NCBI GenBank assembly: GCA_029775875.1
Contig: JARVKD010000004.1
Span: 1 to 50,301 of the forward strand
Length of the DNA stretch: 50,301 nt
Origin: Nitrososphaeria archaeon
GTDB lineage: Archaea; Thermoproteota; Nitrososphaeria; Nitrososphaerales; JACAEJ01
Direction of reading: 5' to 3'
In this document: in pieces, positions 26,924 through 50,301 of the stretch
How the letters are laid out: every line of letters begins with the position of its first letter
Position numbering within the stretch: position 1 is the stretch's first letter
Translations under genes and position numbers: made by a program
Notes under the pieces: model-generated
Database searches by the model: none
Told to the model about the DNA's origin: nothing
The model's input: the letters and a program-made list of their open reading frames with translations, nothing else

Positions 26924-26924
26924 A

Positions 26925-34887: not shown

Positions 34888-34934
34888 CAATGGCTCATAA
34901 GAAATGAATGAAGCAAGTATAAGGAAATCTTACA

Positions 34935-35480: not shown

Positions 35481-35541
35481 TCCTTTCCACTATGCTTCTA
35501 TCATTAATTAGAACAGAGACTGATTATAAAGGTTCTTTGAG

Positions 35542-36798: not shown

Positions 36799-36891
36799 TT
36801 CAAAAACAGGATAAGAATCCGAGTGATAAGTAATATATAAGATGTGCTATAAATATATAAAGTGATTTAAATTCAACTGTATAGAATCCAT

Positions 36892-38493
36892 CTACACCCG
36901 ATTCTGGCCTTTAGCAACATTCATCAGAATTTCTTCTGCTATTTCATCAAAATTGTTATTAGTGCTAGTTACATCGATTATATCACAATTTCTTATCGAT
37001 CTAACCATCCTCTTAAATATGGGGTTGTAAGCTTCTAAATTATTAAGAAGAATTATCTTCTCAAAAGGATGTTTTCTTATGAATTCTTTTGTGCGCTTTA
37101 AGATTTCTCTAATAACATACCTATCTGGTTTAATCGCACTTACGTATTGTGATAAAGGATAAACGTCTGAGAGTTCAACTGGTATTATCCCAAAAGGTAA
37201 GGCTAAGAAGCAGATTTGAATTTCTTTTAGAGCATTGCCAAGAGCATTAACTAATTTTATGTAGAATGGAGATTTATAGAAGGGCTTTACATCAGACTCT
37301 GGAAGGATTAGAAGAGTCTTCTTCTCTAATGGTATCGATATATCCTCTAATATCCTTTTGTGGTACCTTAAAGCTTCAGGCCTCATCAAATCATAGTGTT
37401 CATAAAAGAAAAGTGCCCTTGGTTTGAACAGTGGAGTACCATCTTCTAAAAATTCGTAACGATCTATCAGTAATTTAAAAGCCTCCCAAAGCTTTGGGTG
37501 AGCCCTTGCTTTTATGCCAAGATACTCCCAGATTCTTCCATCCTCTATTGCCTGCTTTGTCGCTTTGAGTTCTTTTGATAAAACGTTTAGGTTATGAATT
37601 GCTATCTTCTTTGTTCTTTCTTCAGATTCAAGCTCTTTTATTTCCTTTAATGTATATTCTGAGCATACAGGGCAATTACATGGTAAGTATGTTAATTCGT
37701 CAAATCTTAAAGTACCGTAATCTGTCATGTATCGCCCTTCTCTAGCATATAGCATATAGGAGGCTGAATCGAAAAGATCACAGCCAAGAGCAACAGCGAG
37801 AGGTATTGTTAATGGATGCCCAGCACCGAAAAGATGAAGAGGCTTATCTATAGGAAGAGACTGCTTTACTGCTATTATCATCTTAGCCAAAAGATCAAAA
37901 TCGTAAGATTCCATGACTTCAGTAGGGCTTCCAAGGGCGAATAAATCGAAACCCATCTTGCTAGTCAGCTTCGCAGATTTTTTTAACAAATCGATATAGC
38001 TACCTCCTTGAATAGGACCGACCCATAGAGTTCCTTCAGCTTTTATTGCCTTCAGAGTTTCTTCTGCTGCCTTTAAAGTTATTTCGACAGTCTCACTGGC
38101 TCTTTTTTTATCTACACCTATCCCTGTTGGTGTATCAAGAACCAAAGCCATATCAGAGCCAATCTTTTCTTGAAAGATAGCCATCTCTACAGGATCAACC
38201 TCTATGCTCCCATACTCAAGAACTTGATAGCCTCCTGAGTCTGTCATGATAATTCCATCGTAATCTATGATTTTGTGTATTCCTTTCTCCTCTGCCTTTT
38301 TGCCAAAAACTTTCAGTGTTATGTAGGCATTTGTCATGACAGCCTTGAAACCCATTTTCTTCATCTCTTTTGGTGCTATACTCTGCCTTACAGGATGTAT
38401 AACAGGTAAGATGCAAGGCGTCTCTAGTAATCCGCTCTTTGTTCTTATCTCTCCTATTCTACCCGCTAAGTCTGTAGCCTTTATTTCGAACAT
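36892..38493 (-). CDS. tgtA: tRNA-guanine(15) transglycosylase (archaeosine synthesis)
   Basis: DLAGRIG, MTNAYI, MTDSGGYQ, GPIQGG, HLFGAGHP, DLFDSASY, CNCPVC, HNL. Confidence 0.96.
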   Translation of the reverse strand: MFEIKATDLAGRIGEIRTKSGLLETPCILPVIHPVRQSIAPKEMKKMGFKAVMTNAYITLKVFGKKAEEKGIHKIIDYDGIIMTDSGGYQVLEYGSIEVDPVEMAIFQEKIGSDMALVLDTPTGIGVDKKRASETVEITLKAAEETLKAIKAEGTLWVGPIQGGSYIDLLKKSAKLTSKMGFDLFALGSPTEVMESYDFDLLAKMIIAVKQSLPIDKPLHLFGAGHPLTIPLAVALGCDLFDSASYMLYAREGRYMTDYGTLRFDELTYLPCNCPVCSEYTLKEIKELESEERTKKIAIHNLNVLSKELKATKQAIEDGRIWEYLGIKARAHPKLWEAFKLLIDRYEFLEDGTPLFKPRALFFYEHYDLMRPEALRYHKRILEDISIPLEKKTLLILPESDVKPFYKSPFYIKLVNALGNALKEIQICFLALPFGIIPVELSDVYPLSQYVSAIKPDRYVIREILKRTKEFIRKHPFEKIILLNNLEAYNPIFKRMVRSIRNCDIIDVTSTNNNFDEIAEEILMNVAKGQNRV

Positions 38494-38604
38494 GTATTAA
38501 TCACTCTTTTAAGTCTAAGCGAAGATTAAAACATATTTGCCATTAAGATGACTTGCTATCTATCAATTTTCAAAAGTTCCATAGTAATTCTTTGGAGGGT
38601 TATA

Positions 38605-40353
38605 TTATTCAGTTGCTACAATCTTGTTGAAAATCTTGGAGTAGTGATCTAAGGCTGCTTTCATGTAGTTCTTATCGATCAATCCACGAAAGCTTGGAAC
38701 TTCAAAGATTCTTTCAGGAATTCTAAGTTCACTAGGTCTGAAGCCTTCCGAAGCCTTCAAGGCTTGCTTTTCCCTGTAGATGCATCTCCCTAGCTCTTTT
38801 AACCTTTCTTCATCAAATTCATATCCTAGAACATCAAGAGCCTTTTTGACTATGCTAGGTTCATAGATTCCTCTGGCGAAGTAGCATATTACAAGGCTTG
38901 AGAGGATTTGCCTCCATTGCTCTTCTTCTATTAACTTATCCACCATCTCTTCAGGCGATAAACCCTTCATCTTCTGATCTATAGAGTAGCCAGCTGCATC
39001 AAGATGGCTATGGCGAGAACCTATTAGATAGCCAATATGACTTGCAGGACCTGTATGATAGCCGGGCATCTCATTTCCACCAAAGGATAGAGCGAAATCT
39101 CTACCACCATAAATTTTAGATGAGTGATCAACGCCCATGGCTAAGGCTTTATAGAATTCGTTGGGCTGGTCTACTATCAACTTGACAGCCTCTCTATAAG
39201 CATCTGCCTTTCCCCAGTCTAAATCTACTACTAAATCATTTAATTTGATCAAGCCTTTTTTGTAAGCTTCTGTAGCCCAAGCCAATGCCACGCCAGTGCT
39301 TATAGCATCTAATCCTCCTATTTCCACTTCATCCATCAGCTTTAAGAGACCGTTTATATCAGAGATGCCGAGCATACTTCCTAGAGAGTATAGAAGTTCA
39401 TAATCATAAGATACAAAAGTAGTCTTGTAAAAGTAAGGCTCATCGGGATAGGGTTCTCTTATAGTTGCTAGGTGTATACAAGCCACTGGACAATGGCTAC
39501 AGGCTACTCTTCTACCAAGCTTTTTGGCAGCTAAATCTTCGCCACTAATATTCTCAGCCCCTTCAAATCTAGCTTCTAAGAGGTTTCTCGTTGGCAAGGC
39601 TCCCAAAGCATTAATGGGTAATATATTCATGGGTGTACCCAATTCGTGGTACTTTTTCATGGAGCCGGACTTTACTGCAAGATCATATATCTCATCATAA
39701 ACATCTCTATAAGCCTTAATCTTGGGCATACGCATACTTGATTTACCATGAATTACCAAAGCCTTAAGCTTCTTAGAGCCAAAGACTGCTCCCAATCCCA
39801 TTCTGCCAAAATGTCTGTAAGTCTCCGATACAACGCAAGCATACCTAACTAATTTCTCACCAGCCCTGCCAATTCTCATTATCGTCCTTACACCAGTTCC
39901 AGGTGAAGCTTCTCTAAGAACTCTACCAGCAGTGAAAGTGCTTCTCATCCCCCATAGGGTGGCTGCATCTTTAAACTGAACTCCTTTTTCACTTATTACC
40001 AAGTATATGGGTCTATCGCTAACTCCTTTGATCAATATAGCACCATAGCCGGCAGACCTAATGGCTGTAGCACTTCTTCCACCAGCATGACTCTCGCCAT
40101 AATTCCCTGTCAAAGGACTTTTGAAGACAGCCACAACCTTTGATGCTAAAGGGTAAAGGGCTGTTAGTGGTCCTACAGCAAATACGATGACATTTCCAGA
40201 ACTAAGAGGGGCAGAACCTTTGACTGCCTCTTCCTTATAGAGCTGAAGAGCTACTCCAACTCCTCCAAGCCACTCATTAAAGAGATCGGATCTATTCTTT
40301 ACGTAGAAGCTCTTTCTCTCAAGATCTACGTATAGAACATTGTTTTGATTCAT
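38605..40353 (-). CDS. Aldehyde:ferredoxin oxidoreductase family (W/Mo-pterin) large subunit
   Basis: KSPLTG.YGESHAGG, GPA-like GRAGE, GR.GLGAVFGSKKLKA, LPTRN, CSHCPVAC, DAISTG, E.PGY. Confidence 0.92.
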   Translation of the reverse strand: MNQNNVLYVDLERKSFYVKNRSDLFNEWLGGVGVALQLYKEEAVKGSAPLSSGNVIVFAVGPLTALYPLASKVVAVFKSPLTGNYGESHAGGRSATAIRSAGYGAILIKGVSDRPIYLVISEKGVQFKDAATLWGMRSTFTAGRVLREASPGTGVRTIMRIGRAGEKLVRYACVVSETYRHFGRMGLGAVFGSKKLKALVIHGKSSMRMPKIKAYRDVYDEIYDLAVKSGSMKKYHELGTPMNILPINALGALPTRNLLEARFEGAENISGEDLAAKKLGRRVACSHCPVACIHLATIREPYPDEPYFYKTTFVSYDYELLYSLGSMLGISDINGLLKLMDEVEIGGLDAISTGVALAWATEAYKKGLIKLNDLVVDLDWGKADAYREAVKLIVDQPNEFYKALAMGVDHSSKIYGGRDFALSFGGNEMPGYHTGPASHIGYLIGSRHSHLDAAGYSIDQKMKGLSPEEMVDKLIEEEQWRQILSSLVICYFARGIYEPSIVKKALDVLGYEFDEERLKELGRCIYREKQALKASEGFRPSELRIPERIFEVPSFRGLIDKNYMKAALDHYSKIFNKIVATE

Positions 40354-40757
40354 CGGCTAATCATCCCCTCAACACCTAAAACTCTAAAGTTGCAATAGCC
40401 AACACAGTAACCGCAGTGCACACAAATTACAGGCTTGTTCATGCTGTCGTCCCAGAATACAGCCCCAATGTCACAAGCCCTTTCACAGAATCTACATCCT
40501 ATACATTTTGATAAATCTAGTATAACTCCTCCTCCATCTCTTGCTCTTAAAGCATCAACAGGACAGGCTCTAAGGCATGGAGGGTCTATGCATGCTCTAC
40601 AGACAACGACTGTGAATCCCCTCTCAAATCCTCCTACGCTCTTAACATGAAGGGCTGATTTGTCTAGACCTGCGAAGCCAAGCCTTCTTGAGCATGCAAA
40701 CATGCAGAGCTGACAACCAACACAGCGCTCCGCATCCATTATGACAAGTCTCTTCAA
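40350..40757 (-). CDS. 4Fe-4S multicluster ferredoxin-like subunit (DmsB/HycB-like) of the AOR
   Basis: CVGCQLC..AC, CRAC..PPC...CP, CIGCRFC..AC, CVHCGYC...C; ATGA overlap with AOR. Confidence 0.92.
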   Translation of the reverse strand: MKRLVIMDAERCVGCQLCMFACSRRLGFAGLDKSALHVKSVGGFERGFTVVVCRACIDPPCLRACPVDALRARDGGGVILDLSKCIGCRFCERACDIGAVFWDDSMNKPVICVHCGYCVGYCNFRVLGVEGMISR

Positions 40758-40891
40758 TTTAGTATCTAGCCTCCTATGATCACTATATATTAAACCTTTG
40801 GCAGATAAAAGTGCTCGTTGTGTTAATGCTATGATAATATCATGAGTTTACAAAGATCAAGAATAAAGTATCTTATTTGTTTGAGGAAATT

Positions 40892-41479
40892 CTAAGAATC
40901 GGCAAGGTCAAAACCGATGAGCATTATCCCCAGTTTTGAATCCCATCCCATAATATGTCTTAAGTATATGTCTGTAGGAGCGCATGGTGAAGCAGAGATC
41001 ACACTGCAAATCTCATCGAGGCATTCAAGCTCTGGAAAGGAGAGAGGTGGAAATAGAATTATAAAGTCCGTCAATGGCGAACCCTTAAGCCTGTCTCTAT
41101 GTATGACAAATGTTTCGCCCATGAGCAGAGCATCCTTTTTTCCTTTCAATTCTTTCAATGTGTTAGCATCCCAGACCTCTTCACCAACATCAACTCCTCC
41201 TAGCCTCCATTTCACAAAAGGTTCAGGTGGGTGACGAAAATCGTTATTATGCGCTAGAACCAGAACTTCCTGTCTATCAAGAACTTCTCTGATTCCTTCA
41301 TTGTAAAAGCGCCGAGATTGCATCGATGTTTCCTCTTCAAAAGTCTTCTCTAGTTCAAGAATTTTGGCTCTATGATCGAGTGATAGCCGCTTGATATCCA
41401 AAGTGCCTTTTATACTCTTTAGAATTGCCTCCACTTTTTCGAGGGTCTTATCTTTTTCCACTTTAACCTTAATATCCAC
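40892..41479 (-). CDS. Hypothetical protein, paralog A of 43971-44567
   Basis: Shares colinear motifs with 43971-44567 (NxGxREVLxR, PPE, GEE, TFVI, LFPxLSxPEL, LIGF). Confidence 0.85.
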   Translation of the reverse strand: MDIKVKVEKDKTLEKVEAILKSIKGTLDIKRLSLDHRAKILELEKTFEEETSMQSRRFYNEGIREVLDRQEVLVLAHNNDFRHPPEPFVKWRLGGVDVGEEVWDANTLKELKGKKDALLMGETFVIHRDRLKGSPLTDFIILFPPLSFPELECLDEICSVISASPCAPTDIYLRHIMGWDSKLGIMLIGFDLADS

Positions 41480-41550
41480 AATCTAGTATATCAATTTTCT
41501 TTTCGACTTAAGACAATTCCAAATATTTCATAAGCAAGGTTAGCAAGCTC

Positions 41551-42600
41551 TCAAAAGTGTGAACCATGCTCATTCTCTTCTAAGCTAAAATCAAGGCGAT
41601 ACTGTGACAAAATCTTCTCTACTTTGCCTTCTAAAATATTCTCCAATACTTTATCCTTTAAATCTTTGACGACAGCGTATATCGTCATTTCACCTTCTCT
41701 CGCAGAGCCTTTGAAATTTCCAGAAAAATCCACTCCATGCTTAACATCCAAAAGACTAGCCTTAAAAGAGCCTGATGAAGTCTTTACATAAGCCTTTACA
41801 TGCCCTATCAATCCACTCCCAGAATTTAAAGAAGCATTGGCAATTTCATTGAATATTTCGCTAATAACCACCTTAAGTTTTGCTTCGCTTACATCTTCCT
41901 TCGCTTTAAACGACAACTTAAGGGCGGCTCTTCCCATGCCAGAAAGCATTACTGAATCTCCATCATCGCTTAGGGATGAAACCTTCATGTTACTTTGCAG
42001 AATTATATCTATCAGTTCGTTCATTCCATCTCCTCTTTTCGCTGACATACTAAATATGTAAGCACTTGGATTAAGCTCTCTCACGGCTGACTTTAGCAAG
42101 TCTATATCCCATCTCGATTCTATAAGGTCGACTTTGTTTATGGCAATAACATCGGCTTCTTTGATCTGCTTGATGAGGAAGTGCTCCATTTCTTTGAACA
42201 TATTTCTAAATCTTGCACCATCCACCAAAGCTATCACTGGCGCTTGTTCCATTGGCAAATCTATCAAACCATCTACGATTTCCTTAATTTTTGAAGGAAA
42301 GGCGATACCCGTTGGTTCAATCAAAACGATGTCAGGTCCATAATTTTCATAAAGAATTTTTAATGTCGATTGTAAATCTCCTTTAAGTGAGCAACAGATG
42401 CATCCTTGGACAATCTCTTTAACTTCAAACCCAAAGTCACGAATAAAAGAACCGTCTATACCTACTTCTCCTACTTCGTTAACGATAATGCCTACCTTCT
42501 TCCCATGCTTTGTGGATAGTTCCTTTCCTAATTGAATCAGTGTAGTAGTCTTCCCACTACCAAGAAAACCAGCAATTTGGGCAATTCTAGTCAATCTCAA
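41551..42600 (-). CDS. G3E (CobW/HypB/UreG) family GTPase metallochaperone
   Basis: GFLGSGKTT, NEVGEVGID, GCICC, EPTG, NKVD, SAKRG; C-terminal domain with GHVK and EHGSHF. Confidence 0.9.
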   Translation of the reverse strand: MRLTRIAQIAGFLGSGKTTTLIQLGKELSTKHGKKVGIIVNEVGEVGIDGSFIRDFGFEVKEIVQGCICCSLKGDLQSTLKILYENYGPDIVLIEPTGIAFPSKIKEIVDGLIDLPMEQAPVIALVDGARFRNMFKEMEHFLIKQIKEADVIAINKVDLIESRWDIDLLKSAVRELNPSAYIFSMSAKRGDGMNELIDIILQSNMKVSSLSDDGDSVMLSGMGRAALKLSFKAKEDVSEAKLKVVISEIFNEIANASLNSGSGLIGHVKAYVKTSSGSFKASLLDVKHGVDFSGNFKGSAREGEMTIYAVVKDLKDKVLENILEGKVEKILSQYRLDFSLEENEHGSHF

Positions 42601-42674
42601 GTCACGCGGATTATTTCAATTCCCTTGAGTGCCATATTTTATAAACTTATTTACAATCATTCTACACACACTTA

Positions 42675-42685
42675 CAATATTCATG
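42675..42685. promoter_or_regulatory. Candidate operator CAATATTCATG
   Basis: Copy 1 of 3 in the island; part of a perfect 16-bp palindrome AATATTCATGAATATT (42676-42691); about 30 nt upstream of the TATA of the GTPase gene. Confidence 0.45.
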
Positions 42686-42788
42686 AATATTTTTGGCGAC
42701 TTGTGTAAAATCCTCTTACTTGCCAATTTAGGTTATGTTTTATAACCACATTTTTAAAGTTTCTATAGCATATTCTGCTATTGTAAAT

Positions 42789-42805
42789 AATAAAAAAGTG
42801 TGGGG
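42789..42805 (-). terminator. Oligo-T terminator after the channel gene
   Basis: Minus strand CCCCACACTTTTTTATT about 35 nt past the stop. Confidence 0.5.
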
Positions 42806-42840
42806 TTTACCGGAACTTTTTGATCACAAGGATTCTTCTT

Positions 42841-43347
42841 TTATGGGACTAACCATCCGAACTGCCATGTAATAGCTAGGATGAAGTTTATTACAGAGCA
42901 TATGGCTATGAGTCCTCCTCCAGCCTTTGCGCCCATACCAAATGCAGGAAGACTTCCTCCTAAGCATGCTATGCCATATAGAAACACAACCAGACCTAGA
43001 GACAGAAGAGCCATATTTGCGAAGAATGTGCCCATTATGTAGAGTCCATAAATCAATAGGAATATTCCAGCGAAAAGAACTACAAGACTCAATGTCTTTG
43101 CCTGAACTGTCCAAAAACCAGCTATGCCTACTAATGTGAAGGTCATGCCAGCTATGCCTAGTATGGTAGCTCCTAAGTAATCTCCCGTATTATATAGTAT
43201 GAGGGCGATGAGTATGGTGACTATTCCAGGGAGAATTCCTGCTTTGAAGGCTGTTCCAGCATCACCTTTGCCTAGTAGTGCGTATGCAATTGGGAAGAAA
43301 CCGAACGCGTAAGCTATTACGGCCCAAGAGTATATTTCTAGAGCCAT
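42841..43347 (-). CDS. Six-TM membrane protein, AmiS/UreI-like channel
   Basis: 168 aa, almost entirely hydrophobic, about 6 TM helices; LLGKGD after TM1 and GMTF..VG in TM3 resemble AmiS/UreI LLGKxDxK and FxxTYLxV. Confidence 0.6.
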   Translation of the reverse strand: MALEIYSWAVIAYAFGFFPIAYALLGKGDAGTAFKAGILPGIVTILIALILYNTGDYLGATILGIAGMTFTLVGIAGFWTVQAKTLSLVVLFAGIFLLIYGLYIMGTFFANMALLSLGLVVFLYGIACLGGSLPAFGMGAKAGGGLIAICSVINFILAITWQFGWLVP

Positions 43348-43407
43348 AAGCGTTCTTCGCTCTCAAAACTATTTAACGATTATGGGTAATTTTTCCTAAG
43401 TGCTTAT

Positions 43408-43418
43408 CAATATTGATG
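43408..43418. promoter_or_regulatory. Candidate operator CAATATTGATG
   Basis: Copy 2; overlaps palindrome ATCAATATTGAT (43406-43417); about 32 nt upstream of the TATA-like sequence of the channel gene. Confidence 0.45.
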
Positions 43419-43593
43419 ATTTCGCCTTTTTATTTACAAAAATATTGAAATAAAGCCTTAAAAAGATTTTAAGACGGTATTTGTCAAAGTCAGAAAAATA
43501 TTACATTACATTTAAAAATAGGTAAAATGAGTTTGCTTAGTATCCCCAGATTAGATAACTCTTAAATAAAAATAATGCGAAATATAACATGTT

Positions 43594-43950
43594 ATGAGCG
43601 AAGAGTCAGAAACAGAATACAAGCATTTAATCCTCACGCCAAGGAACTTTGATGAGATAATAAACTCAGAAAAGCCTGTAATCGTAGACTTTTGGTCTAG
43701 TTCATGCTTTTCATGCAGGTTCATGCTACCAGTCTTTGAGAAGTTGGCAAACAAATATGGTGAAAAGATGATCTTTGGTAGGTTGAATGTGTTGGAGAGT
43801 GTTGGGAATAGAGATATAGCAGCACGTTACGAAATTTTCTCAATACCTTCTTATTTGGTCTTTGTAAAGGGAAAGCCGATGGACAGAATAACAAGCTCAG
43901 CGAGAGAGGAAGATCTCGAAGAACTTATCAACAAATACATAAATGCCTAA
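43594..43950 (+). CDS. Thioredoxin-family protein (CFSC active site)
   Basis: KPVIVDFWSSSCFSCR...PVFEKLA, SIPS cis-Pro loop, F.KG. Confidence 0.88.
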   Translation: MSEESETEYKHLILTPRNFDEIINSEKPVIVDFWSSSCFSCRFMLPVFEKLANKYGEKMIFGRLNVLESVGNRDIAARYEIFSIPSYLVFVKGKPMDRITSSAREEDLEELINKYINA

Positions 43951-43970
43951 GATAATATCTTCATGAAGAA

Positions 43971-44567
43971 TTATTTATAACAAATATTAAAGCCTATGAG
44001 TTCTGTGCCTAAATCTCTTCGATCAACTTCTATCCCAAGCTTTTTCATCTTCTCTTTGATAAGCGTATCAACAGGTGGGGAAGGAATGGCTGCTACAACG
44101 CCATAGATTTCATCAATATCCTTGAGTTCAGGGACTGATAACGTAGGGAATAAGAAATAAGATATTCGTGATAAGACTTCAGATACTTTATCCTTGTAGA
44201 TTACAAATGTATCGCCAATGAGAACAACGTCTTTCCTTCCTTTGAAATCTCTTAATTCATCTTCAGTCCTGATCTCCTCTCCTATAACTTCTCCCATGGA
44301 GATAATCTGGATCTTCTCAGGAGGCCAACAATACTCGTTGGTATGAAGGATAGCAAGGATGACTTCTCTCTTAAGGACTTCTCTCATGCCTGCATTGAAG
44401 CCTCTACCCATTCCTCCAAGGACGCATTTTTCTGCCTCCATCTCACGTTCTAAGAGGACTTTACACTCTTCCTTCTCTAACTCACAAACCGCACGGATGC
44501 CCTTTACGTTCTTAAGGATTGAAGTAACTTTTTCTATCACAGCTTTTCTGCAAGCAAGACTGCTCAC
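43971..44567 (-). CDS. Hypothetical protein, paralog B of 40892-41479
   Basis: Colinear motif sharing with 40892-41479; GTG start with AGGTG SD; divergent from ramA. Confidence 0.85.
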   Translation of the reverse strand: MSSLACRKAVIEKVTSILKNVKGIRAVCELEKEECKVLLEREMEAEKCVLGGMGRGFNAGMREVLKREVILAILHTNEYCWPPEKIQIISMGEVIGEEIRTEDELRDFKGRKDVVLIGDTFVIYKDKVSEVLSRISYFLFPTLSVPELKDIDEIYGVVAAIPSPPVDTLIKEKMKKLGIEVDRRDLGTELIGFNICYK

Positions 44568-44729
44568 TCTATTACACCTTGTTTAATTTGATGTCTTTAG
44601 GCATTACACGATATAAAATTCTTTTCTTTGTTAGGAAAGGAATCTATCAAATAGTTGTAAGCGTTATTGAGAGTTTTGAAAATTGGCATCATAAAACTAT
44701 TATATCATAATGATGTTATAATATAGTGT

Positions 44730-46373
44730 ATGAGTGAAGAAAGGTATGGCATTGCTCTAGACATCGGGACAAGTGGCCTAAGGGCACAGGCAATAGATTT
44801 GAACTCTGGTAAGCTCATTTCAACAGCTATAACCTTGAGGCATCCGTTGCCTGGAGCAAACATTATGGATCATTTACACTTTGCGGTAGAAACAAGCATA
44901 GAGACAGCGCATGCTGTGGTTATTGATGCAGTGAATAGAATAATCAGAGCGTTAGACATCAACCTTAACAGAGTAGAGCGACTAGCAGCCAGCGGAAATC
45001 CTACTCAATTGTCCATCTTTCAAGGTATAGAGATAAGAGACCTTGCGTATTGGGGAAAGCATGCACTTGAGAGGTATGGTGTCAAGCCACCAACTAGGGA
45101 TGCAACCATAGTTGAAGCAGGAAAACTGGGAATCTTAGTAAGGGATGGAGCTGAGGTATACATTCCACCTTCCGTTAAGCATGAGATAGGGGCTGATGCA
45201 TTAGCCATGTTGTATGAAGCAAAGATATTTGAGAAGGGAGAAAATGCTTTCATTACAGACTTTGGGACCAATGCAGAGATGGCTCTATGCTATAATGGTG
45301 AGATATATACAGGCTCCGCAGCTGCAGGTCCTGCCATAGAAGGGCAAAGAATAGAGAAAGGTATGTTGGCTGCTCCTGGTGCCATCAGTGATGTAAGTGC
45401 TTCTACCCTTGGATGGAAGAATTATGTCTTGAACGGGGAGCTAATAGCAAGTGAAGGGGATGTAGTATCGCCATCATCGGGCAAAGTTCTGGAACAAGGT
45501 GAGATGCATGGTAGAGCTTTGGGAGTGACTGGAACGGGTGTAATAGCTGTTACGAGTATAGGAATAGATCTAGGTCTTATAACTCTACCAAGGATCAATG
45601 CAGCAGAGAAAAAGATTCATCTTCAGGATGGGATTTATGTTACTGAGAAGGATGTAAAGGAAGCTGGAAAAGCACTGGGCGCCTTTAGAGCAGGGTACTT
45701 TACTCTAGCTGAAGAGGCCGGAATAATGCAAGACGATGTGAATGTGGCATACATGGCAGGGGCATCAGGCTTTTATGTTGATGCTCTTAAGTCTTTGAAC
45801 GTTGGTCAGATACCAAGATGCTGTGATACCATCTACCAAGTAGGCAATACCTCTCTTGCACTAGCAAGGGATATAGTTCGCAAGCCTGAATTGATGGATT
45901 TCTTGCAAGACATGGCCAAGCAGATAAGGGGCAAGCATATACTATTTCCAGAGTCTCAAGTATTCATGCAAGTTTACCCCCTTGAGCTTGCATATTGGGA
46001 AGAAGGAATGCCTTTATGGGAGTATGAACAGTGGTTAAAAAGATACAATTATCAAGGTTTTCCAATAAAAGCCAGAAACCCAAAGGTCTACAAGATCTTT
46101 AAAAGAGACATTCCTGATCTAGGCGAGAAAGGTCTGAAAATAATAAGAGATATAGGAGTGATGCTAGCCGGTGAATTTCCTGGATGCACTGCTTGTAGGT
46201 CATGTGAAACAGAATGCCCTGAGGGGGCCATAACAGTGGAGGAGAGAGATGGAACAGGTAAGATATTAATTAGATCAGACCTTTGCCTTGGGGTTGCATG
46301 TTTGAGATGTGAAAGAGTATGTCCCGAGAAAGTATTCAAATTCAAAGAACTCTTGCATGAGAAGTTTGGATAA
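44730..46373 (+). CDS. ramA: Corrinoid protein reductive activase (RamA/RACo, ASKHA fold plus C-terminal 2x[4Fe-4S])
   Basis: YGIALDIGTSG.R, RHPLPGAN.MDHL.FA, HEIGADALAM, DFGTNAEM, GSAAAGPAIEGQ, CTACRSC...CP and CLGVACLRC...CP. Confidence 0.93.
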   Translation: MSEERYGIALDIGTSGLRAQAIDLNSGKLISTAITLRHPLPGANIMDHLHFAVETSIETAHAVVIDAVNRIIRALDINLNRVERLAASGNPTQLSIFQGIEIRDLAYWGKHALERYGVKPPTRDATIVEAGKLGILVRDGAEVYIPPSVKHEIGADALAMLYEAKIFEKGENAFITDFGTNAEMALCYNGEIYTGSAAAGPAIEGQRIEKGMLAAPGAISDVSASTLGWKNYVLNGELIASEGDVVSPSSGKVLEQGEMHGRALGVTGTGVIAVTSIGIDLGLITLPRINAAEKKIHLQDGIYVTEKDVKEAGKALGAFRAGYFTLAEEAGIMQDDVNVAYMAGASGFYVDALKSLNVGQIPRCCDTIYQVGNTSLALARDIVRKPELMDFLQDMAKQIRGKHILFPESQVFMQVYPLELAYWEEGMPLWEYEQWLKRYNYQGFPIKARNPKVYKIFKRDIPDLGEKGLKIIRDIGVMLAGEFPGCTACRSCETECPEGAITVEERDGTGKILIRSDLCLGVACLRCERVCPEKVFKFKELLHEKFG

Positions 46374-46410
46374 ATAAATTTAAATTTATGGATTCTTCCT
46401 AAAAAGGATT

Positions 46411-47478
46411 ATGAAGCCCATTAAAGAGATATTAGAAGAAATTTCAAGTCCTATCTCTCCCTTAGAGAGAATCAATATGGCTCTGAGACTTGAGAAACCT
46501 GATAGAGTTCCTATCGCTCCTGTTATAACTATCCACACACCACCTGATCTGAGAAAGGCTGAAGAGTATTTCGAGAAGATATTCATAGATTTGGGAGGAT
46601 GTGATGGTTTTTTCTTCTGGCCTTTGACTTTGATGACTGGTAGAAGTTATACACCAGGCAAGCTTGGTGCCCCTGAAGCTGTAACCATCATGAAGGACTC
46701 AACGGGTTACGACGAACTTATGGAAGAGGGGTTTATGAGTTATCTTTCTCGAGTCTATAGAGAGCAAGACCTTGATGAAGATATAGAGAAAGCCTTGACT
46801 TATGCTGCAGAACAAACAAGGGCATTTGCTCAAAAATGGGAGGAAGAGAGAAAGGTGCCTCTTTACGCAGGGGCTTTGGGTATAGTGCCTTTTGGTTTTC
46901 TTGCCTACGCTAGAGGATTTACAGAAATTGTCAAGGATATCATAAGATATCCATGGAAGATCAACCGAACATGTGATACAATCGTAGATGAGATGACAAA
47001 GCTCTTCATAAAGCTCTGTGAAATATCCAATGTGAGAAGGTTATGGCTGAGTTTTATAAATTCGACTCCTGAGACTGTAGGTCCTCCTCATTTTTCTTCA
47101 TTCGTGTGGCCAACAGCAAGAATTATGATCGAGCAGCTAATAGATGCAAAGATAGTGCCTATATTGCAATTCGATGTTGATGCATCGCCAGTATTCAACT
47201 ACCTTAAAGAACTCCCAAAGGGGGAGTGTATTCTTCATCTAGACAGTTCCACGAATATCATCAAGGCAAAAGAGAGTATCGGGAACCATATGTGCATCAT
47301 GGGCAATGTATCATTCTTGAAATTAGCCACTGAAGAAGATGTCAAGGTCTACTGCAAAGATCTAATCAATCGAGTAGGCGAGAAAGGAGGTTTCATCCTA
47401 AGCTCTGATAATCCAATCGTTATAGATGAAGAGCCCATAGAGAAAGTGAAGGCTATCATAGATGTGAAGAAAACATAA
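46411..47478 (+). CDS. Uroporphyrinogen decarboxylase / MtaA-superfamily protein (divergent)
   Basis: ERI..A...EKPDRVP, PF...A.ARG, F..FVWP, CIMGNV, EEDV..YC..LI.......GGFILSS. Confidence 0.85.
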   Translation: MKPIKEILEEISSPISPLERINMALRLEKPDRVPIAPVITIHTPPDLRKAEEYFEKIFIDLGGCDGFFFWPLTLMTGRSYTPGKLGAPEAVTIMKDSTGYDELMEEGFMSYLSRVYREQDLDEDIEKALTYAAEQTRAFAQKWEEERKVPLYAGALGIVPFGFLAYARGFTEIVKDIIRYPWKINRTCDTIVDEMTKLFIKLCEISNVRRLWLSFINSTPETVGPPHFSSFVWPTARIMIEQLIDAKIVPILQFDVDASPVFNYLKELPKGECILHLDSSTNIIKAKESIGNHMCIMGNVSFLKLATEEDVKVYCKDLINRVGEKGGFILSSDNPIVIDEEPIEKVKAIIDVKKT

Positions 47479-47548
47479 GGGATCTGATTAAGCGTAGATA
47501 TAACATTGGAAGGGTAAAACTAATCGCCATTATGGCATGATTTATTAA

Positions 47549-47582
47549 GCCCAAAGTGCAAGAATATTTTTGCATTTCGGGT
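47549..47582. terminator. Inverted repeat between convergent genes (possible bidirectional terminator)
   Basis: GCCCAAAGTGCAAGAAT/ATTTTTGCATTTCGGGT, near-perfect 17-bp arms when G-U pairs are allowed. Confidence 0.5.
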
Positions 47583-47685
47583 AAGATCTTTAAGAGGGTG
47601 AAATCAAAGCCAAAGACCCATGCCTAGTCTCTTTTTAGAGTAAAAAGCGTTTTTGCGCAGAAATTATAGATTTGAATATTTGTTA

Positions 47686-48342
47686 TCAATAAGAAACTTT
47701 TCCACTGGTAAGAGCCATAGTCCGATAAGCATCATCATCAATAGCTGCAGATATTACTGCTTCCCTTGCCTTCCAAGCCCTAGGTGCAAAGGCAGATATG
47801 AGCAAGTCACCTTCGACAAGAGGAAACTCTTTATTCAATTTCCCAGCCAATGGAGGAAACAAGGCTGAAAGGTCTTCGTAGACTTTAGGGAGGATAAGTC
47901 TGCCCTTCTCGTAAGATATCATCATACATGCTGAAGCACCAGCTCTTACAGCCTTGTCCCTTAGTGCCAATACGTTGAAATTTTTTCTTTGTGGTACATG
48001 TGCGACTGCACAGCAACTATCCAAAGCCAAGAACTCAAAATCGAAGTTCTTGATACTTTTGATCTTGAGTTTTTCCAATATTTTTGATAAAAGATCCGTG
48101 CCAGCCTCAGTTAGCAGTGCACCTTTTTTTGTAGCACGAACGATACCTATGTCTGTAAAATAAGATAAAGCCCCTCTTATGATGCCTTCTGGAATCTCTA
48201 GCTCCTTGACTATTTTATATCTCCCCACAGGCCCCTTCTCCTTTATCAGAAGAAATAACGCTACAATCTTGGGAAACTTGATTTTTCTTTCACGCATAAG
48301 ACCGCCGATAAAATCATCAAGTTCAGAAGAATGAACTAGCAT
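47686..48342 (-). CDS. Second DUF4443-like winged-helix regulator
   Basis: GPVGRYKIVKELEIPEGIIRG wHTH, GALLTEAG, LALRDKAVRAGASA; paralog of 10603-11229. Confidence 0.75.
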   Translation of the reverse strand: MLVHSSELDDFIGGLMRERKIKFPKIVALFLLIKEKGPVGRYKIVKELEIPEGIIRGALSYFTDIGIVRATKKGALLTEAGTDLLSKILEKLKIKSIKNFDFEFLALDSCCAVAHVPQRKNFNVLALRDKAVRAGASACMMISYEKGRLILPKVYEDLSALFPPLAGKLNKEFPLVEGDLLISAFAPRAWKAREAVISAAIDDDAYRTMALTSGKVSY

Positions 48343-48421
48343 CTTTGGTCTTCAATAGTATAACGTTGTGAAATATAAATATTGATATTTTTTCTTTAGT
48401 TATATAACACTGCAAAGAATA

Positions 48422-48432
48422 CAATATTGATG
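48422..48432. promoter_or_regulatory. Candidate operator CAATATTGATG
   Basis: Copy 3, 80 nt upstream of the regulator start; a degenerate copy AAATATTGATA at 48377-48387 overlaps its TATA region. Confidence 0.45.
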
Positions 48433-48540
48433 CCACTGTGACTTTAGGTGAATGGGATTGGGCGAGCTTAGTCCAAGGCTAAGCGGGGCTTCGAAAATAC
48501 CAAAATTATCTGATGTTGAACATTAAAAAAGGTTAGAACC

Positions 48541-49560
48541 TTAACTTGGTAATTTATAGTATTCTTTGACAGCAGTGACTATTGCCTTTATGTTTTCTAA
48601 AGGAGATCCTGGTGCAAGACCGCATGCTGGAGCCAATAGATCTACCCCTGCATCAAGTGCCCTTTTAGCTTCTTCTTTGACTTTTTCAGGATTGCCCAAG
48701 AAAATCGTTCTGCTAGTAGATACATTACCAACAATTCTAGACTTACCTGCTGCAGCCTGTTTAGCCATTTTTATGTCGACTTTATCTTCTATGCTTATAG
48801 CATGCGCCCCTGTTTCTGCCATATCCCTGACTATCGGTGCTGCCTCACCACAAATATGAAGTATAAAGTATCCTTTGACAGACCTTATAAGATTCCTTAG
48901 AACTGGTTTCACCAACTCTCTAAAGTCTAGTGGGCTAAGCAGGTTAGGCGATGATGTTGGGTCACATGGGTTAAGGACGTCTGCTCCTGCTTCTATTAGT
49001 GCATTCGCATAGATAATGTTCGCCTCGGTAGTTTTATCTAACAACTCTCTCACATCGTTCCTTCTACTTATCAACCATCTCATGAGATTTTCAGTTCCAA
49101 TTAGATGTCCTGCAAGTGTTATAGGCGCCTCAAATCCCACTATTATCGGTAGTGTATCACCATATTTTTCCTTCAGAATCTTAGTAGCTTCTAAAACAAC
49201 TGGTATGCGACCACGCTTAAGGAAGTCATCGGGAATTTCAAGTTGATCAACAGAAGTAATAGGATGCTCCTTCACCATTGGTTGCCTATCGATCTTGCCT
49301 ATATCTACTCCACCACCTAAAGCTTCAACTTGTACAGTCAAATCAAAGGGGACTCTAGCAGTTTCAAGGCCTGTAAGTTTATAGAGCGAGACTCCTAAAG
49401 TAGCCATCAATTGAGGGTCTTTATGAGCTTCTGGCCATCTTGCATTTACAGCTTCCATTCCTTCGACAATCCCAACTTGTGTTACGCATGTTGGTGGCGT
49501 ATAGTCTTTGGGTTCTCCCAACATCGCGCGAATGAATCTTTCTTTAGGATTCAATTTCAA
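48541..49560 (-). CDS. mtaA: Methylcobamide:CoM methyltransferase (MT2, MtaA/MtbA family)
   Basis: WPEAH.DP..MA, RVPFDLTVQVEALG, GRIPVV, P.TLAGHL.G.E, DPTSSP, Zn ligands LHICG and APACG. Confidence 0.92.
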   Translation of the reverse strand: MKLNPKERFIRAMLGEPKDYTPPTCVTQVGIVEGMEAVNARWPEAHKDPQLMATLGVSLYKLTGLETARVPFDLTVQVEALGGGVDIGKIDRQPMVKEHPITSVDQLEIPDDFLKRGRIPVVLEATKILKEKYGDTLPIIVGFEAPITLAGHLIGTENLMRWLISRRNDVRELLDKTTEANIIYANALIEAGADVLNPCDPTSSPNLLSPLDFRELVKPVLRNLIRSVKGYFILHICGEAAPIVRDMAETGAHAISIEDKVDIKMAKQAAAGKSRIVGNVSTSRTIFLGNPEKVKEEAKRALDAGVDLLAPACGLAPGSPLENIKAIVTAVKEYYKLPS

Positions 49561-49612
49561 TTCAAATCTCCATATAATACAATTAATAGTTTTCGCTTTC
49601 TAAAGAATTCAT

Positions 49613-49648
49613 AAAATAAAAGGTGGGGCATAGCGAAATACGCTATGC
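49613..49648 (-). terminator. Hairpin plus U-tract terminator after the corrinoid protein gene
   Basis: Perfect 8-bp stem GCATAGCG-N5-CGCTATGC (49628-49648) followed on the minus strand by CCCACCTTTTATTTT. Confidence 0.7.
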
Positions 49649-49654
49649 TTCTTC

Positions 49655-50301
49655 TTACCAGCCTTTACCTGTAGCGTACTCTCCGACTACTTCGCTGTAT
49701 TTGATCCTAAGATCCTTCCAACCCATGCCCTTGAGGATGGCATCTGCAAGCTTTGGTGCGTGGTGGGCTTTAGCTCCGAAGAATCCAAGATCGAAGGTTT
49801 CTACCCACTCCTTCGATAGAGCTCCTCCACCACAACCAAATGGAATGTCGATGCCTGCATCCTTGAGCTTTGCAGCTATCTTCGGGAAGTTGGACATGGT
49901 TGTAGTCATTAGAGCAGTTCCTGTGAGCCATATTGGCTTCTCTTTCTTAACAGCATTTACTACTGTCTCTATTGGTACATCTCTTCCTAGGTCTGTCACA
50001 TCATAGCCTGCTGCTCTCAGAAACATTACAACTAGGTTCTTTCCAATATCGTGAGGGTCTCCCTCAGCAACATGGCAGACTACTTTGCCCTTCTTTTCCG
50101 TTGTCTTGCCTAACGCTTTCTCACATTCAGCAATACCAGCCATCATGGCATCAGCAGATACCATGACGTTTGGTAGGAAGTATGTACCACTTGCGTATAG
50201 TGCACCTACTGCATCCATGCCTTTAGCCAATCCCTTCTCGATTACGTCTAGTGGCTTTGTCGTTCTTAATGCATCTTTAACCTTTGATAGGACTGTGTCT
50301 G
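49655..50301 (-). CDS. mtaC: Methyltransferase corrinoid protein (MtaC-like), 5' end off window
   Basis: Frame stays open to the window end (..DTVLSKVKDALRTTKPLDVIEKGLAKGM); YFLPNV, EGDPHDIGKN B12 motif (DxHxxG), DLGRDVP, GTALMTTTM, CGGGA. Confidence 0.9.
   Translation of the reverse strand, partial: DTVLSKVKDALRTTKPLDVIEKGLAKGMDAVGALYASGTYFLPNVMVSADAMMAGIAECEKALGKTTEKKGKVVCHVAEGDPHDIGKNLVVMFLRAAGYDVTDLGRDVPIETVVNAVKKEKPIWLTGTALMTTTMSNFPKIAAKLKDAGIDIPFGCGGGALSKEWVETFDLGFFGAKAHHAPKLADAILKGMGWKDLRIKYSEVVGEYATGKGW

What the first reader, a model, noticed from the sequence alone, without database searches (positions are those of the whole stretch)
38605..50301. Methyl-corrinoid:CoM island with several uncharacterised accessory genes in a TACK-type archaeon
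Seen: within 11.7 kb are MtaC-like, MtaA (intact Zn ligands), RamA, a G3E GTPase, thioredoxin, AOR plus ferredoxin, an AmiS/UreI-like channel, a URO-D-fold protein without Zn ligands, a wHTH regulator and two paralogous unknowns. Known: MtaC/MtaA/RamA form the methanol/methylamine-to-CoM module of methylotrophic methanogens. Inference: the rest of the window looks TACK (possibly basal Nitrososphaeria), so this could be a non-euryarchaeal methyl-reducing methanogen or methylotroph. The accessory genes may form an undescribed system for substrate uptake, metal loading, redox repair and regulation. No mcr or mtaB is visible here.
Basis: partly seen in the sequence, partly recalled or inferred. 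Interest (0 to 1): 0.8.

Follow-up and report, generated by a model that had tools for sequence, protein, structure and literature searches.

The report
Methanol methyltransferase island with unnamed activase partner
This is the methanol-to-coenzyme-M methyl-transfer gene cluster of an already described non-euryarchaeal methanogen lineage, and its most interesting part is an unnamed small protein family that travels with the corrinoid-reactivating enzyme RamA across archaea and bacteria.

Summary
The genome (G000) carries mcrA. Its McrA is 79-80% identical to 'Ca. Methylarchaceae' MAGs, a Nitrososphaeria lineage already published as methyl-reducing methanogens (PMC9478090).

The window is a whole contig that ends inside mtaC. 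In 3 of 4 other same-genus genomes, mtaB lies directly upstream of the orthologous mtaC, so the missing mtaB is an assembly break.

- **G3E GTPase:** its link to mta/ram genes has been known since 2009 (PMC2770081).
- **Zn-less URO-D protein:** resembles CdmB, a zinc-free substrate:corrinoid methyltransferase (E 7.6e-23).
- **Membrane protein:** has a UreI/SatP-like six-helix fold.
- **AOR, ferredoxin, thioredoxin:** linked only in close kin.
- **Two paralogous unknowns:** they belong to an unnamed ~190-aa family (301 representative clusters), always annotated 'hypothetical', including in Methanosarcina. The family co-occurs with RamA/RACE activases in three phylum samples (45 both, 2 family only, 3 RamA only, 251 neither; 2/0/0/299; 39/1/61/150) and often adjoins them.

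Its function is inferred, not shown.

The parts
49655..50299 (-). MtaC-type corrinoid protein. It is truncated at the contig end and lacks about 55 N-terminal residues.
   Evidence: Pfam B12-binding and B12-binding_2. NCBIfam MtaC2_Meth 314.6 bits over profile positions 57-267. A D-x-H-x-x-G motif is visible in the translation. It is 92-96% identical to same-genus MtaC orthologues that follow mtaB, and the alignment starts at residue 56 of 269.
48541..49560 (-). MtaA, the zinc-dependent methylcobamide:CoM methyltransferase (MT2)
   Evidence: NF040654 MtaA_Meth 434 bits against a cut-off of 400. H-x-C and the downstream Cys are present (A3).
47686..48342 (-). wHTH + DUF4443 putative transcription regulator
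   Evidence: PF14544, PF22167 and PF21715. It is conserved next to the island in relatives L089, L093 and L107-L109. A DUF4443 regulator also lies near the family gene in 16 of 29 Methanomassiliicoccales-type loci.
46411..47478 (+). Zinc-ligand-less UroD-superfamily protein (UROD2), a probable zinc-independent substrate:corrinoid methyltransferase (MT1). It lies 38 nt downstream of ramA.
   Evidence: PF01208 at only 67 bits. The best solved relative is CdmB, 9rui, E 7.6e-23 over residues 137-347. Zn ligands are absent. Orthologues at 61% identity or more occur only in this lineage.
44730..46373 (+). RamA, the ATP-dependent reductive activase of corrinoid proteins
   Evidence: TIGR04270 735.9 bits against a cut-off of 500. 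RACo_C_ter, Raco_middle and a C-terminal 2x[4Fe-4S] domain.
43971..44567 (-). Unknown C, a member of the unnamed ~190-aa RACE-activase-associated family. It is head-to-head with ramA across a 162-bp spacer.
   Evidence: No Pfam or NCBIfam match. Family alignments A1 and A2. 301 representative clusters. AF2 model pLDDT 91. Nitroreductase-like fold lead, Z up to 8.1. Co-occurrence and adjacency with RamA/RACE.
43594..43950 (+). Thioredoxin with a C-F-S-C active-site motif
   Evidence: PF00085 66.7 bits. Motif read from the translation. It is adjacent to unknown C only in the close relatives L089-L093.
42841..43347 (-). Six-helix membrane protein with a UreI/SatP-like channel fold (unkB)
   Evidence: No Pfam match. 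16 homologues, all in this lineage. Model pLDDT 74.5 with six helices. Foldseek hits SatP 5zug (E 5e-3) and UreI 6nsj (TM 0.75/0.70, rmsd 2.9).
41551..42600 (-). G3E/COG0523 (CobW-like) GTPase metallochaperone
   Evidence: PF02492 137.5 bits. P-loop GSGKTT and the C-x-C-C motif GCICC are in the translation. A G3E gene lies beside MtaC or MtaA in L096-L101. The association was reported in PMC2770081.
40892..41479 (-). Unknown A, the second member of the ~190-aa family (36% identical to unknown C)
   Evidence: tblastn, alignment A1, profile hit 1.3e-63.
40350..40757 (-). Multi-cluster 4Fe-4S ferredoxin-like protein. It overlaps the AOR start by 4 nt.
   Evidence: Fer4 family hits. A paralogous Fd+AOR pair lies on C18.
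38605..40353 (-). Aldehyde:ferredoxin oxidoreductase family protein. Whether it belongs to the island is doubtful.
   Evidence: AFOR_N and AFOR_C. It is far below the NCBIfam equivalog cut-offs. It is linked to the island only in L089 and L092.

Best explanation
The island is the methanol:coenzyme M methyl-transfer module of a 'Ca. Methylarchaeales'-type Nitrososphaeria methanogen, together with its maintenance genes. MtaB is lost at the contig break and is inferred. It would methylate the Co(I) corrinoid of MtaC with methanol, and MtaA (a Zn enzyme) would pass the methyl group to CoM for Mcr. RamA uses ATP and low-potential electrons to return oxidised Co(II)-MtaC to Co(I). The accessory genes read as follows. 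(i) The two paralogous unknowns belong to an unnamed ~190-aa alpha/beta family that works with RACE-type activases (RamA and RACo types), most likely as an auxiliary subunit for electron input or corrinoid-protein handling during reactivation. (ii) The COG0523 G3E GTPase loads metal, either Zn for MtaA/MtaB or cobalt/corrinoid. (iii) A UreI/SatP-like six-helix channel may admit the small uncharged substrate. (iv) UROD2, a zinc-free CdmB/O-demethylase-like UroD-family protein translationally close to ramA, is a second substrate:corrinoid methyltransferase for an unknown methyl donor. (v) A DUF4443 wHTH protein regulates the set. Shown here: gene identities, synteny and co-occurrence. Inferred: every biochemical role assigned to the accessory genes.
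For: Core module: curated-cut-off matches for MtaA and RamA, and an MtaC-type corrinoid protein. mcrA is in the genome. In same-genus genomes G001, G003 and G004, MtaB (630-635 bits to PF12176) lies directly upstream of the MtaC orthologue, followed by MtaA, wHTH, UROD2 and RamA. Lineage: McrA is 79-80% identical to 'Ca. Methylarchaceae'-labelled and Nitrososphaerota-labelled MAGs, and the lineage is published as methyl-reducing (PMC9478090). Family and activase, adjacency: a RamA-type gene is directly adjacent in 12 of 14 fetched loci spanning Nitrososphaerales, Archaeoglobales, Desulfobacterota, Dehalococcoidales and others; one locus is cut by a contig end and one lacks it. Family and activase, co-occurrence: in the Halobacteriota sample of 301 genomes, 45 have both, 2 only the family, 3 only RamA and 251 neither; 18 of 68 family genes lie within 500 bp of RamA. 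In the Desulfobacterota sample of 301, the same 2 genomes have both, adjacent, and 299 have neither. In the Thermoproteota sample of 251, all 13 RamA-positive genomes have the family; 39 of 40 family-positive genomes have a PF14574 activase; 31 of 56 family genes lie within 1.5 kb of one. The third paralogue on C4 is 13 bp from a DUF1638 gene, a family genetically tied to a RamA-like protein in B12 reactivation (bioRxiv 10.1101/192971, passages). G3E: beside MtaC or MtaA in L096-L101 and reported in PMC2770081. Channel: fold match, and unrelated-in-sequence AmiS/UreI-like genes sit next to the G3E gene in L098 and L100. UROD2: CdmB match and loss of Zn ligands; CdmB is zinc-free (PMC13222342).
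Against: mtaB is not in this assembly, so methanol specificity rests on MtaC typing and on relatives. The family is not tied one-to-one to RamA. In the Thermoproteota sample, 27 of 40 family-positive genomes lack a TIGR04270-type RamA, and 61 genomes have a RACE activase without the family. Only 5 of the 30 best-scoring Halobacteriota loci have RamA within 1.5 kb; the others sit beside ELP3-like radical SAM, histidine kinase or aldolase genes. In Methanomassiliicoccales-type loci the family gene lies near mcrA, not RamA. Relatedness inflates all the co-occurrence counts, and one of the two Desulfobacterota positives was the search centre. The nitroreductase-like fold is only Z<=8.1, with no sequence support, and the family has no conserved Cys or His (A2: invariant E42 and G96 only). 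UROD2 has no corrinoid gene beside it in this window. AOR, Fd and Trx linkage is limited to close kin. No expression data were found.
Confidence: 0.7

Rival explanations
1. The ~190-aa family is a corrinoid-handling chaperone: a B12-binding or B12-processing protein on a nitroreductase-like scaffold, as recalled for CblC/MMACHC and reductive dehalogenases. It would load or exchange the cofactor on MtaC-type proteins rather than assist electron transfer by RamA.
For: The fold search returned almost only nitroreductase/BluB/IYD-type folds in the top 39 rows, Z 8.1-5.1. The family lies in operons with corrinoid proteins, a G3E chaperone and cobalt transporters CbiMQO (L096). It has no conserved Cys or His for a metal cluster.
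Against: No CblC or dehalogenase chain appears among the 50 listed rows. There is no sequence match to any PDB chain at E<=10. Z values of this size can be chance arrangements, as the tool's own note says. That this fold binds B12 is recalled, not tested here.
Confidence: 0.2
2. The accessory genes are mere neighbours kept together by shared descent in one lineage, with no functional tie to the methyltransferases. The island is just mtaC-mtaA-ramA beside unrelated genes.
For: AOR and Fd are linked in 2 of 14 loci and Trx in 5 of 14, all close relatives. A second AOR+Fd pair exists elsewhere in the genome on C18. UROD2 and unkB orthologues are confined to this lineage. Most best-scoring Methanosarcinales-type copies of the family sit in unrelated contexts.
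Against: The family and the G3E gene recur with RamA and Mta genes in different phyla and both domains, with different gene orders. Genome-level co-occurrence holds in three phylum samples. An analogous small channel sits beside the G3E gene in two bacterial mta loci.
Confidence: 0.15
3. The family is a stand-alone FMN oxidoreductase of the nitroreductase type used in general redox or oxygen-stress defence of strict anaerobes. It is found with RamA only because both are common in methylotrophic anaerobes.
For: The top structural matches are FMN nitroreductases. A thioredoxin is adjacent in this lineage. Many copies are not next to an activase.
Against: No PF00881 or other Pfam match at E<=10. 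None of the 251 RamA-negative Halobacteriota genomes without the family, nor the 150 Thermoproteota genomes lacking both, suggests a general anaerobe function. 31 of 56 copies physically adjoin an activase in Thermoproteota.
Confidence: 0.1
4. The module handles a methyl donor other than methanol, such as methylamines or methylated sulfur compounds.
For: RamA was first characterised with methylamine methyltransferases (recalled, cited within). The genome has a non-Pyl MttB-family gene on C11. mtaB is not in the assembly.
Against: The corrinoid protein scores best against methanol-type MtaC models: 314.6 and 254.1 bits, against 133.5 for MtbC. MtaA passes the MtaA equivalog cut-off and fails MtbA (264 against 600). 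Same-genus orthologues follow mtaB. MtmB and MtbB were not found.
Confidence: 0.07

Closest known systems
MtaCB/MtaA methanol:CoM methyltransferase system with RamA-type activase (Methanosarcina)
   Same: The MtaC-type corrinoid protein, Zn-ligand-bearing MtaA and TIGR04270 RamA are all present above or near curated cut-offs. mtaB-mtaC order holds in same-genus genomes.
   Different: The host is a Nitrososphaeria-type archaeon. mtaB is not assembled here. ramA is paired head-to-head with an unnamed family member and is followed by a Zn-free UroD protein.
COG0523 subfamily 13 G3E GTPases clustered with mtaA/mtaB/mtaC/ramM (Haas et al. 2009, PMC2770081)
   Same: It has the CobW/G3E domain, the C-x-C-C motif and the same gene neighbourhood.
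   Different: No CobW_C domain was detected by Pfam. The metal and the client are still unknown for the whole subfamily. Subfamily assignment was not tested here.
DUF1638, a genetically defined partner of RamA-like (DUF4445) B12 reactivation in bacteria (Price et al., 10.1101/192971)
   Same: It is also a small protein of unknown function whose phyletic pattern follows a RACE-type activase. The third paralogue of the family here is adjacent to a DUF1638 gene.
   Different: No sequence relationship by hhalign, probability 0.6%. The present family has no Pfam model and no genetic data.
CdmB, the zinc-free chloromethane:corrinoid methyltransferase of Acetobacterium (PDB 9rui; PMC13222342)
   Same: UroD-superfamily TIM barrel, no Zn ligands, and the best PDB sequence match, E 7.6e-23 over 211 residues.
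   Different: UROD2 is shorter (355 against 429 aa), and only the C-terminal two thirds align. There is no corrinoid or MTII gene directly beside it in this window. The substrate is unknown. The paper reports close archaeal homologues only in Asgard archaea.
UreI/AmiS urea-amide channels and SatP acetate channels
   Same: Six transmembrane helices and about 170 aa. TM-score 0.73-0.75 to UreI and 0.62 to SatP.
   Different: No Pfam PF02293 match even at E<=10. The family is restricted to this lineage. The transported solute is unknown.
'Ca. Methylarchaeales' methyl-reducing methanogens (Ou et al. 2022, PMC9478090)
   Same: McrA is 79-80% identical to members. The genome is small, with mcr, methyltransferases, MtrA and Mch but no full set of substrate methyltransferases.
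   Different: The accessory genes of the methyltransferase island are not discussed in the passages read. The supplementary gene tables could not be opened.

Membership tests
MtaA (methylcobamide:CoM methyltransferase) | Score above the curated equivalog cut-off | tested here: met
   NF040654 434 bits against a cut-off of 400.
MtaA (methylcobamide:CoM methyltransferase) | Zinc ligands H-x-C and a downstream Cys (motif recalled from the literature) | tested here: met
   LHICG and PACG occupy the conserved columns of A3.
MtaC (methanol corrinoid protein) | B12-binding cap and Rossmann domains with D-x-H-x-x-G | tested here: met
   PF02607 and PF02310. D-P-H-D-I-G is in the translation.
MtaC (methanol corrinoid protein) | Curated equivalog cut-off, and an mtaB partner gene upstream | tested here: inconclusive
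   314.6 bits against a cut-off of 450, but the protein is truncated by the contig end. mtaB is absent from the assembly yet directly upstream in 3 same-genus genomes.
RamA (archaeal RACE-type corrinoid activase) | TIGR04270 cut-off, ASKHA domain and a C-terminal 2x[4Fe-4S] domain | tested here: met
   735.9 bits against a cut-off of 500. RACo_C_ter and Fer4_7 at residues 486-534.
COG0523 / G3E metallochaperone GTPase | CobW nucleotide-binding domain, P-loop and C-x-C-C motif | tested here: met
   PF02492 137.5 bits. GSGKTT and GCICC are in the translation.
COG0523 / G3E metallochaperone GTPase | CobW C-terminal domain | tested here: not met
   No CobW_C family is among the Pfam hits at E<=0.01.
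AmiS/UreI channel family (PF02293) | Sequence match to the family profile | tested here: not met
   No PF02293 hit for unkB at E<=10. BLASTP against the AmiS/UreI-like protein of L100 gives E 0.069.
AmiS/UreI channel family (PF02293) | Six-helix channel fold | tested here: met
   Six helices in a model with mean pLDDT 74.5. TM 0.75/0.70 and rmsd 2.9 A to 6nsj.
Zinc-free UroD-superfamily MT1 (CdmB / O-demethylase type) | Sequence similarity to a characterised member, and absence of Zn ligands | tested here: met
   9rui E 7.6e-23 over residues 137-347. Q-F-D and S-S-D replace H-x-C and C.
Zinc-free UroD-superfamily MT1 (CdmB / O-demethylase type) | Cognate corrinoid protein gene adjacent; methyl transfer to Co(I) | tested here: inconclusive
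   No corrinoid gene is adjacent in the window. A second corrinoid gene lies in the island of same-genus genomes, and its 75% orthologue is on C6 of G000. Activity cannot be tested here.
Nitroreductase/BluB flavoprotein superfamily (for the ~190-aa family) | Sequence match (PF00881 or PDB sequences) | tested here: not met
   No Pfam hit at E<=10. There are 0 PDB sequences at E<=10 with profile A2.
Nitroreductase/BluB flavoprotein superfamily (for the ~190-aa family) | Shared fold; FMN site at a dimer interface | tested here: inconclusive
   VIA-align Z 8.1-5.1 for about 39 superfamily chains, 105-127 residues aligned at rmsd of about 4 A. Foldseek found nothing. The FMN site and the dimer were not tested.
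'Ca. Methylarchaeales' (organism) | Marker-gene phylogeny within the order | tested here: inconclusive
   Only McrA identity (79-80%) and 'Nitrososphaerales' labels on close homologues. No marker tree was built.

The most novel reading that the evidence does not exclude
The unnamed ~190-aa family is a general, so far overlooked component of ATP-dependent corrinoid reactivation. It would be an auxiliary subunit of RACE-type activases (both RamA and RACo types) in methanogens, methanol-using sulfate reducers and Dehalococcoidia, supplying or gating the electron or the corrinoid protein. That would fill the open question of how RamA is fed in vivo. In the same island, the zinc-free CdmB-like UROD2 would give a Thermoproteota methanogen a second methyl-donor entry, conceivably halomethanes, and the UreI/SatP-like protein would be a first candidate methanol channel.
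Probability: 0.35. Interest if true: 0.7.

Novelty: new variant of a known kind. Interest (0 to 1): 0.5.

Why it matters
Methylotrophic methanogenesis and anaerobic methanol use depend on keeping corrinoid proteins in the Co(I) state. RamA/RACE activases are known, but their in-vivo partners and electron supply are not. A small family that tracks these activases across both domains is a concrete genetic target, because it is present in cultured, genetically tractable Methanosarcina yet is annotated only as 'hypothetical'. The organism-level claim (a TACK methanogen) is already in print and adds little.

Tried and rejected
- **Contig join:** joining contig C44 to C11 (MttB near its start) was rejected, because C11 begins with a TYW2-type tRNA-modification gene.
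- **DUF1638 homology:** hhalign of the family against the neighbouring DUF1638 protein gave probability 0.6%.
- **Foldseek PDB** for the family model gave no match at E<=0.001.
- **Profile A2 against PDB sequences** gave 0 hits at E<=10.
- **ESM Atlas** gave only weak leads (GGGtGRT, DUF169; score 0.90, recognition 1097), which I did not follow.
- **The search for related loci with the broad alignment A2** failed for lack of a conserved stretch. I used the genome search instead.
- **Complex prediction of RamA (A5) with unknown C (A2)** returned 'no answer', score 0.00. This is no evidence either way.
- **RNA evidence:** no RNA holder is listed among the public runs.
- **Rfam and tRNA scans** of the window found nothing.
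- **Earlier scan notes** had nothing for this sequence or genome.
- **Literature searches** found no description of the family or of a UreI-like channel in mta clusters: 'RamA corrinoid nitroreductase', 'mtaB mtaC cobW', 'RamA mtaB hypothetical protein methanol Desulfobacterota', 'UreI methanol mtaB', and 'RamA reductive activation corrinoid electron donor methanogen'. The library lacks most subscription journals.
Gene tables in the supplements of PMC9478090 and PMC2770081 might list some of these genes.

Full report
**1. What is there.** The window is the whole of contig C44 of genome G000 (1,227,868 bases, 54 contigs, 94.3% complete). Twelve genes lie between 38605 and 50301:
- AOR and an overlapping 4Fe-4S protein
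- unknown A
- a G3E/CobW GTPase
- a 168-aa membrane protein
- a thioredoxin
- unknown C
- RamA
- a weak URO-D protein (UROD2)
- a wHTH/DUF4443 protein
- MtaA
- an MtaC-type corrinoid protein cut by the contig end

MtaA (434 bits against 400) and RamA (735.9 against 500) pass NCBIfam's curated cut-offs. MtaC matches the methanol-type model from profile position 57 onward. Unknowns A and C are 36% identical, with a third paralogue on contig C4. MtaA and its paralogues keep the H-x-C...C zinc ligands (one C6 paralogue has N-x-C). UROD2 has Q-F-D and S-S-D there instead.

**2. Organism.** mcrA is on contig C53. The closest McrA sequences (79-80% identity) come from MAGs titled 'Candidatus Methylarchaceae archaeon', 'uncultured Nitrosopumilales archaeon' and 'archaeon H03B2'. 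Close homologues of island proteins are labelled 'Nitrososphaerales archaeon'. Passages of Ou et al. 2022 (PMC9478090) describe 'Ca. Methylarchaeales' as an order sister to Nitrososphaerales with mcr, methyltransferases for methyl-reducing methanogenesis, a Wood-Ljungdahl pathway, and only MtrH plus MtrA or MtrX. In line with that, G000 has MtrA and Mch. MtmB and MtbB were not found, and there is one MttB-family gene without in-frame stops. So the 'TACK methanogen' reading is right, but it is already published. An earlier paper by Hua et al. 2019 is recalled only and was not seen.

**3. The missing mtaB.** PF12176 finds nothing in G000, and neither does tblastn with a same-genus MtaB. Three of the four other same-genus genomes have MtaB (630-635 bits). 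There the order is MtaB (467-476 aa), MtaC (92-96% identical to the window's), MtaA, a second corrinoid gene, wHTH, and, in G003, the one locus that extends that far, UROD2 and RamA. Contigs from four public runs of one study cover all 30 bins of 34000-50301. They bridge TGT/AOR (38118-40360), 40097-44228, 44245-47754, and the wHTH/MtaA and MtaA/MtaC junctions. One contig runs about 340 nt past the window end. These runs may include the source sample, so they show consistency rather than independent support. The contig is not chimeric, and mtaB is most likely just beyond the break. In G000 the island MtaA is a different paralogue from that of its congeners (43-45% identity). The second corrinoid gene's 75% orthologue sits on C6.

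**4. The unnamed ~190-aa family.**
- *Annotation.* It has no Pfam or NCBIfam match, even at E<=10.
- *Size of the family.* A word-indexed search found 11 relatives, all 'hypothetical'. An exhaustive profile search found 301 representative clusters at E<=0.001 and 181 at E<=1e-10, nearly all stand-alone proteins of about 190 aa. Members in Methanosarcina sp. MTP4, M. flavescens, Methanohalobium evestigatum, Archaeoglobaceae and Syntrophobacteraceae are all named 'hypothetical protein'.
- *Adjacency in fetched loci.* Of 14 loci fetched with alignment A1, 12 have a RamA-type gene directly adjacent. It is head-to-head in the Nitrososphaerales relatives and co-directional downstream in Archaeoglobales, Desulfobacterota, Dehalococcoidales and others. 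One locus is cut by a contig end, and one (L092) lacks it. The Archaeoglobales operon reads DUF6951-MtaB-MtaA-MtaC-G3E-RamA-family-CbiMQO.
- *Halobacteriota sample (301 genomes).* 45 have both the family and RamA, 2 the family only, 3 RamA only and 251 neither. 18 of 68 family genes are within 500 bp of RamA, in 18 of 47 genomes.
- *Desulfobacterota sample (301 genomes).* The same 2 genomes have both, adjacent, and 299 have neither. One of the two was the search centre.
- *Thermoproteota sample (251 genomes, G000 included).* 40 have the family. All 13 with TIGR04270 RamA have it, but 27 family-positive genomes lack that RamA type. With PF14574, which also detects the longer RACo-type activases, 39 have both, 1 the family only, 61 the activase only and 150 neither. 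31 of 56 family genes lie within 1.5 kb of the activase domain, in 22 of 40 genomes.
- *Conclusion and limits.* The family accompanies both activase types but is not obligatory for them. Kin are not independent, so the Fisher value overstates the case.

**5. Results against a strict RamA tie.** Only 5 of the 30 best-scoring Halobacteriota loci have RamA within 1.5 kb. The rest sit by ELP3-like radical-SAM, histidine kinase or DeoC genes. In 29 of 80 McrA loci, all of the Methanomassiliicoccales type, a family member lies within 3 kb downstream of mcrA, and 16 of those also have a DUF4443 regulator. These facts fit a protein of methylotrophic methane metabolism more broadly.

**6. Structure of the family.** The AlphaFold2 model from A1 is confident (pLDDT 91, pTM 0.86). 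Foldseek finds nothing in the PDB. VIA-align against 48,161 representatives lists about 39 chains at Z 8.1-5.1, almost all FMN nitroreductase/BluB/iodotyrosine-deiodinase-type proteins, with 105-127 residues aligned at about 4 A. The tool warns that Z under 8 can be a common arrangement, so this is a lead, not membership. The broad alignment A2 keeps only E42 and G96 invariant, with G23, N58, G60 and G192 at 90% or more. No conserved Cys or His argues against a metal cluster. I recall that CblC and reductive dehalogenases bind B12 on a nitroreductase-like scaffold, which motivates the chaperone rival, but I did not test it. The third paralogue (C4) is followed after 13 bp by a DUF1638 gene. 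Price et al. (10.1101/192971, passages) showed that DUF1638 and a RamA-like protein are both needed for B12-dependent methionine synthesis and share a phyletic pattern. This is an independent hint that small partners of RACE activases exist. The two families are unrelated by hhalign.

**7. Other accessory genes.**
- *G3E.* The CobW domain, P-loop and GCICC motif are present. A G3E gene lies beside MtaC or MtaA in L096-L101. Haas et al. 2009 (PMC2770081, passage) already reported COG0523 subfamily 13 clustering with mtaA, mtaB, mtaC and ramM. The association is known; the function is not.
- *UROD2.* Its best solved relative is CdmB (E 7.6e-23), the zinc-free chloromethane:corrinoid methyltransferase described in 2026 (PMC13222342, abstract and passages). 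Orthologues at 61% identity or more occur only in this lineage, and all others are 35% or less. It is most simply a zinc-independent MT1 for an unknown donor.
- *Membrane protein.* Its 16 homologues are all in this lineage. It has six helices in a moderately confident model and matches SatP and UreI. AmiS/UreI-like genes of unrelated sequence lie next to the G3E gene in the Dehalococcoidales and Desulfobacterota mta loci. That is 2 of the 6 distant loci L096-L101.
- *AOR, ferredoxin, thioredoxin.* They are linked only in close kin, and a second AOR+Fd pair exists on C18. I do not count them as part of the system.

**8. Verdict.** The finding is real and its organismal reading is right but already known. 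The island is a variant of the Mta/RamA system. What deserves follow-up is the activase-associated family, with the CdmB-like MT1 and the UreI/SatP-like channel as secondary leads. No function of any accessory gene was shown here. The complex prediction gave no answer, and no RNA data were available.

Noticed in passing
window 10603-12703: A second wHTH/DUF4443 paralogue (10603-11229, +) sits directly upstream of a CobB/CobQ-type cobyrinate a,c-diamide synthase-like gene (11321-12703, +). Both DUF4443 regulators in the window therefore neighbour corrinoid-related genes.
   Followed up: partly
G000 contig C6:1-7000 (L087): A URO-D protein, a corrinoid protein, a 673-aa RACo-type activase with an N-terminal 2Fe-2S domain and a further URO-D protein. 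[quoted passage not shown]
   Followed up: partly
G000 contig C7:600-6100 (L086): A short G3E GTPase, two unknown ORFs, a URO-D plus corrinoid pair and four DsrE/DsrF/DsrH-like genes in a row. This is possibly a methyl-sulfur methyltransferase locus.
   Followed up: no
G000 contig C11:789-2261 (L084): An MttB-family gene with no in-frame stop (a non-pyrrolysine type), near a LysE-type exporter gene.
   Followed up: no
L019-L078 (McrA loci): In 29 of 80 McrA loci, all of the Methanomassiliicoccales type, a member of the ~190-aa family lies within 3 kb downstream of mcrA on the opposite strand. 16 of the 29 also have a DUF4443 regulator nearby.
   Followed up: partly
L023, L027, L033, L074, L075: McrA-bearing contigs sit in records titled Anaerovoracaceae, Ruminococcus, Bifidobacteriaceae, Eggerthellaceae and Bacteroides salyersiae. 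These are probably methanogen contigs mis-binned into bacterial bins.
   Followed up: no
G000 contigs C22:40350-40838 and C2:21448-22383: MtrA and Mch are present, so at least part of the H4MPT methyl branch exists in this methyl-reducing-type genome.
   Followed up: no
window 26525-29552: Aconitase X large and small subunits lie next to a UbiD-family decarboxylase. I recall this gene set as belonging to the archaeal mevalonate pathway.
   Followed up: no
L107:17458-17731: In same-genus genome G003 the DUF1638 gene next to the third family paralogue matches in two frames. This suggests a frameshift or a sequencing error.
   Followed up: no
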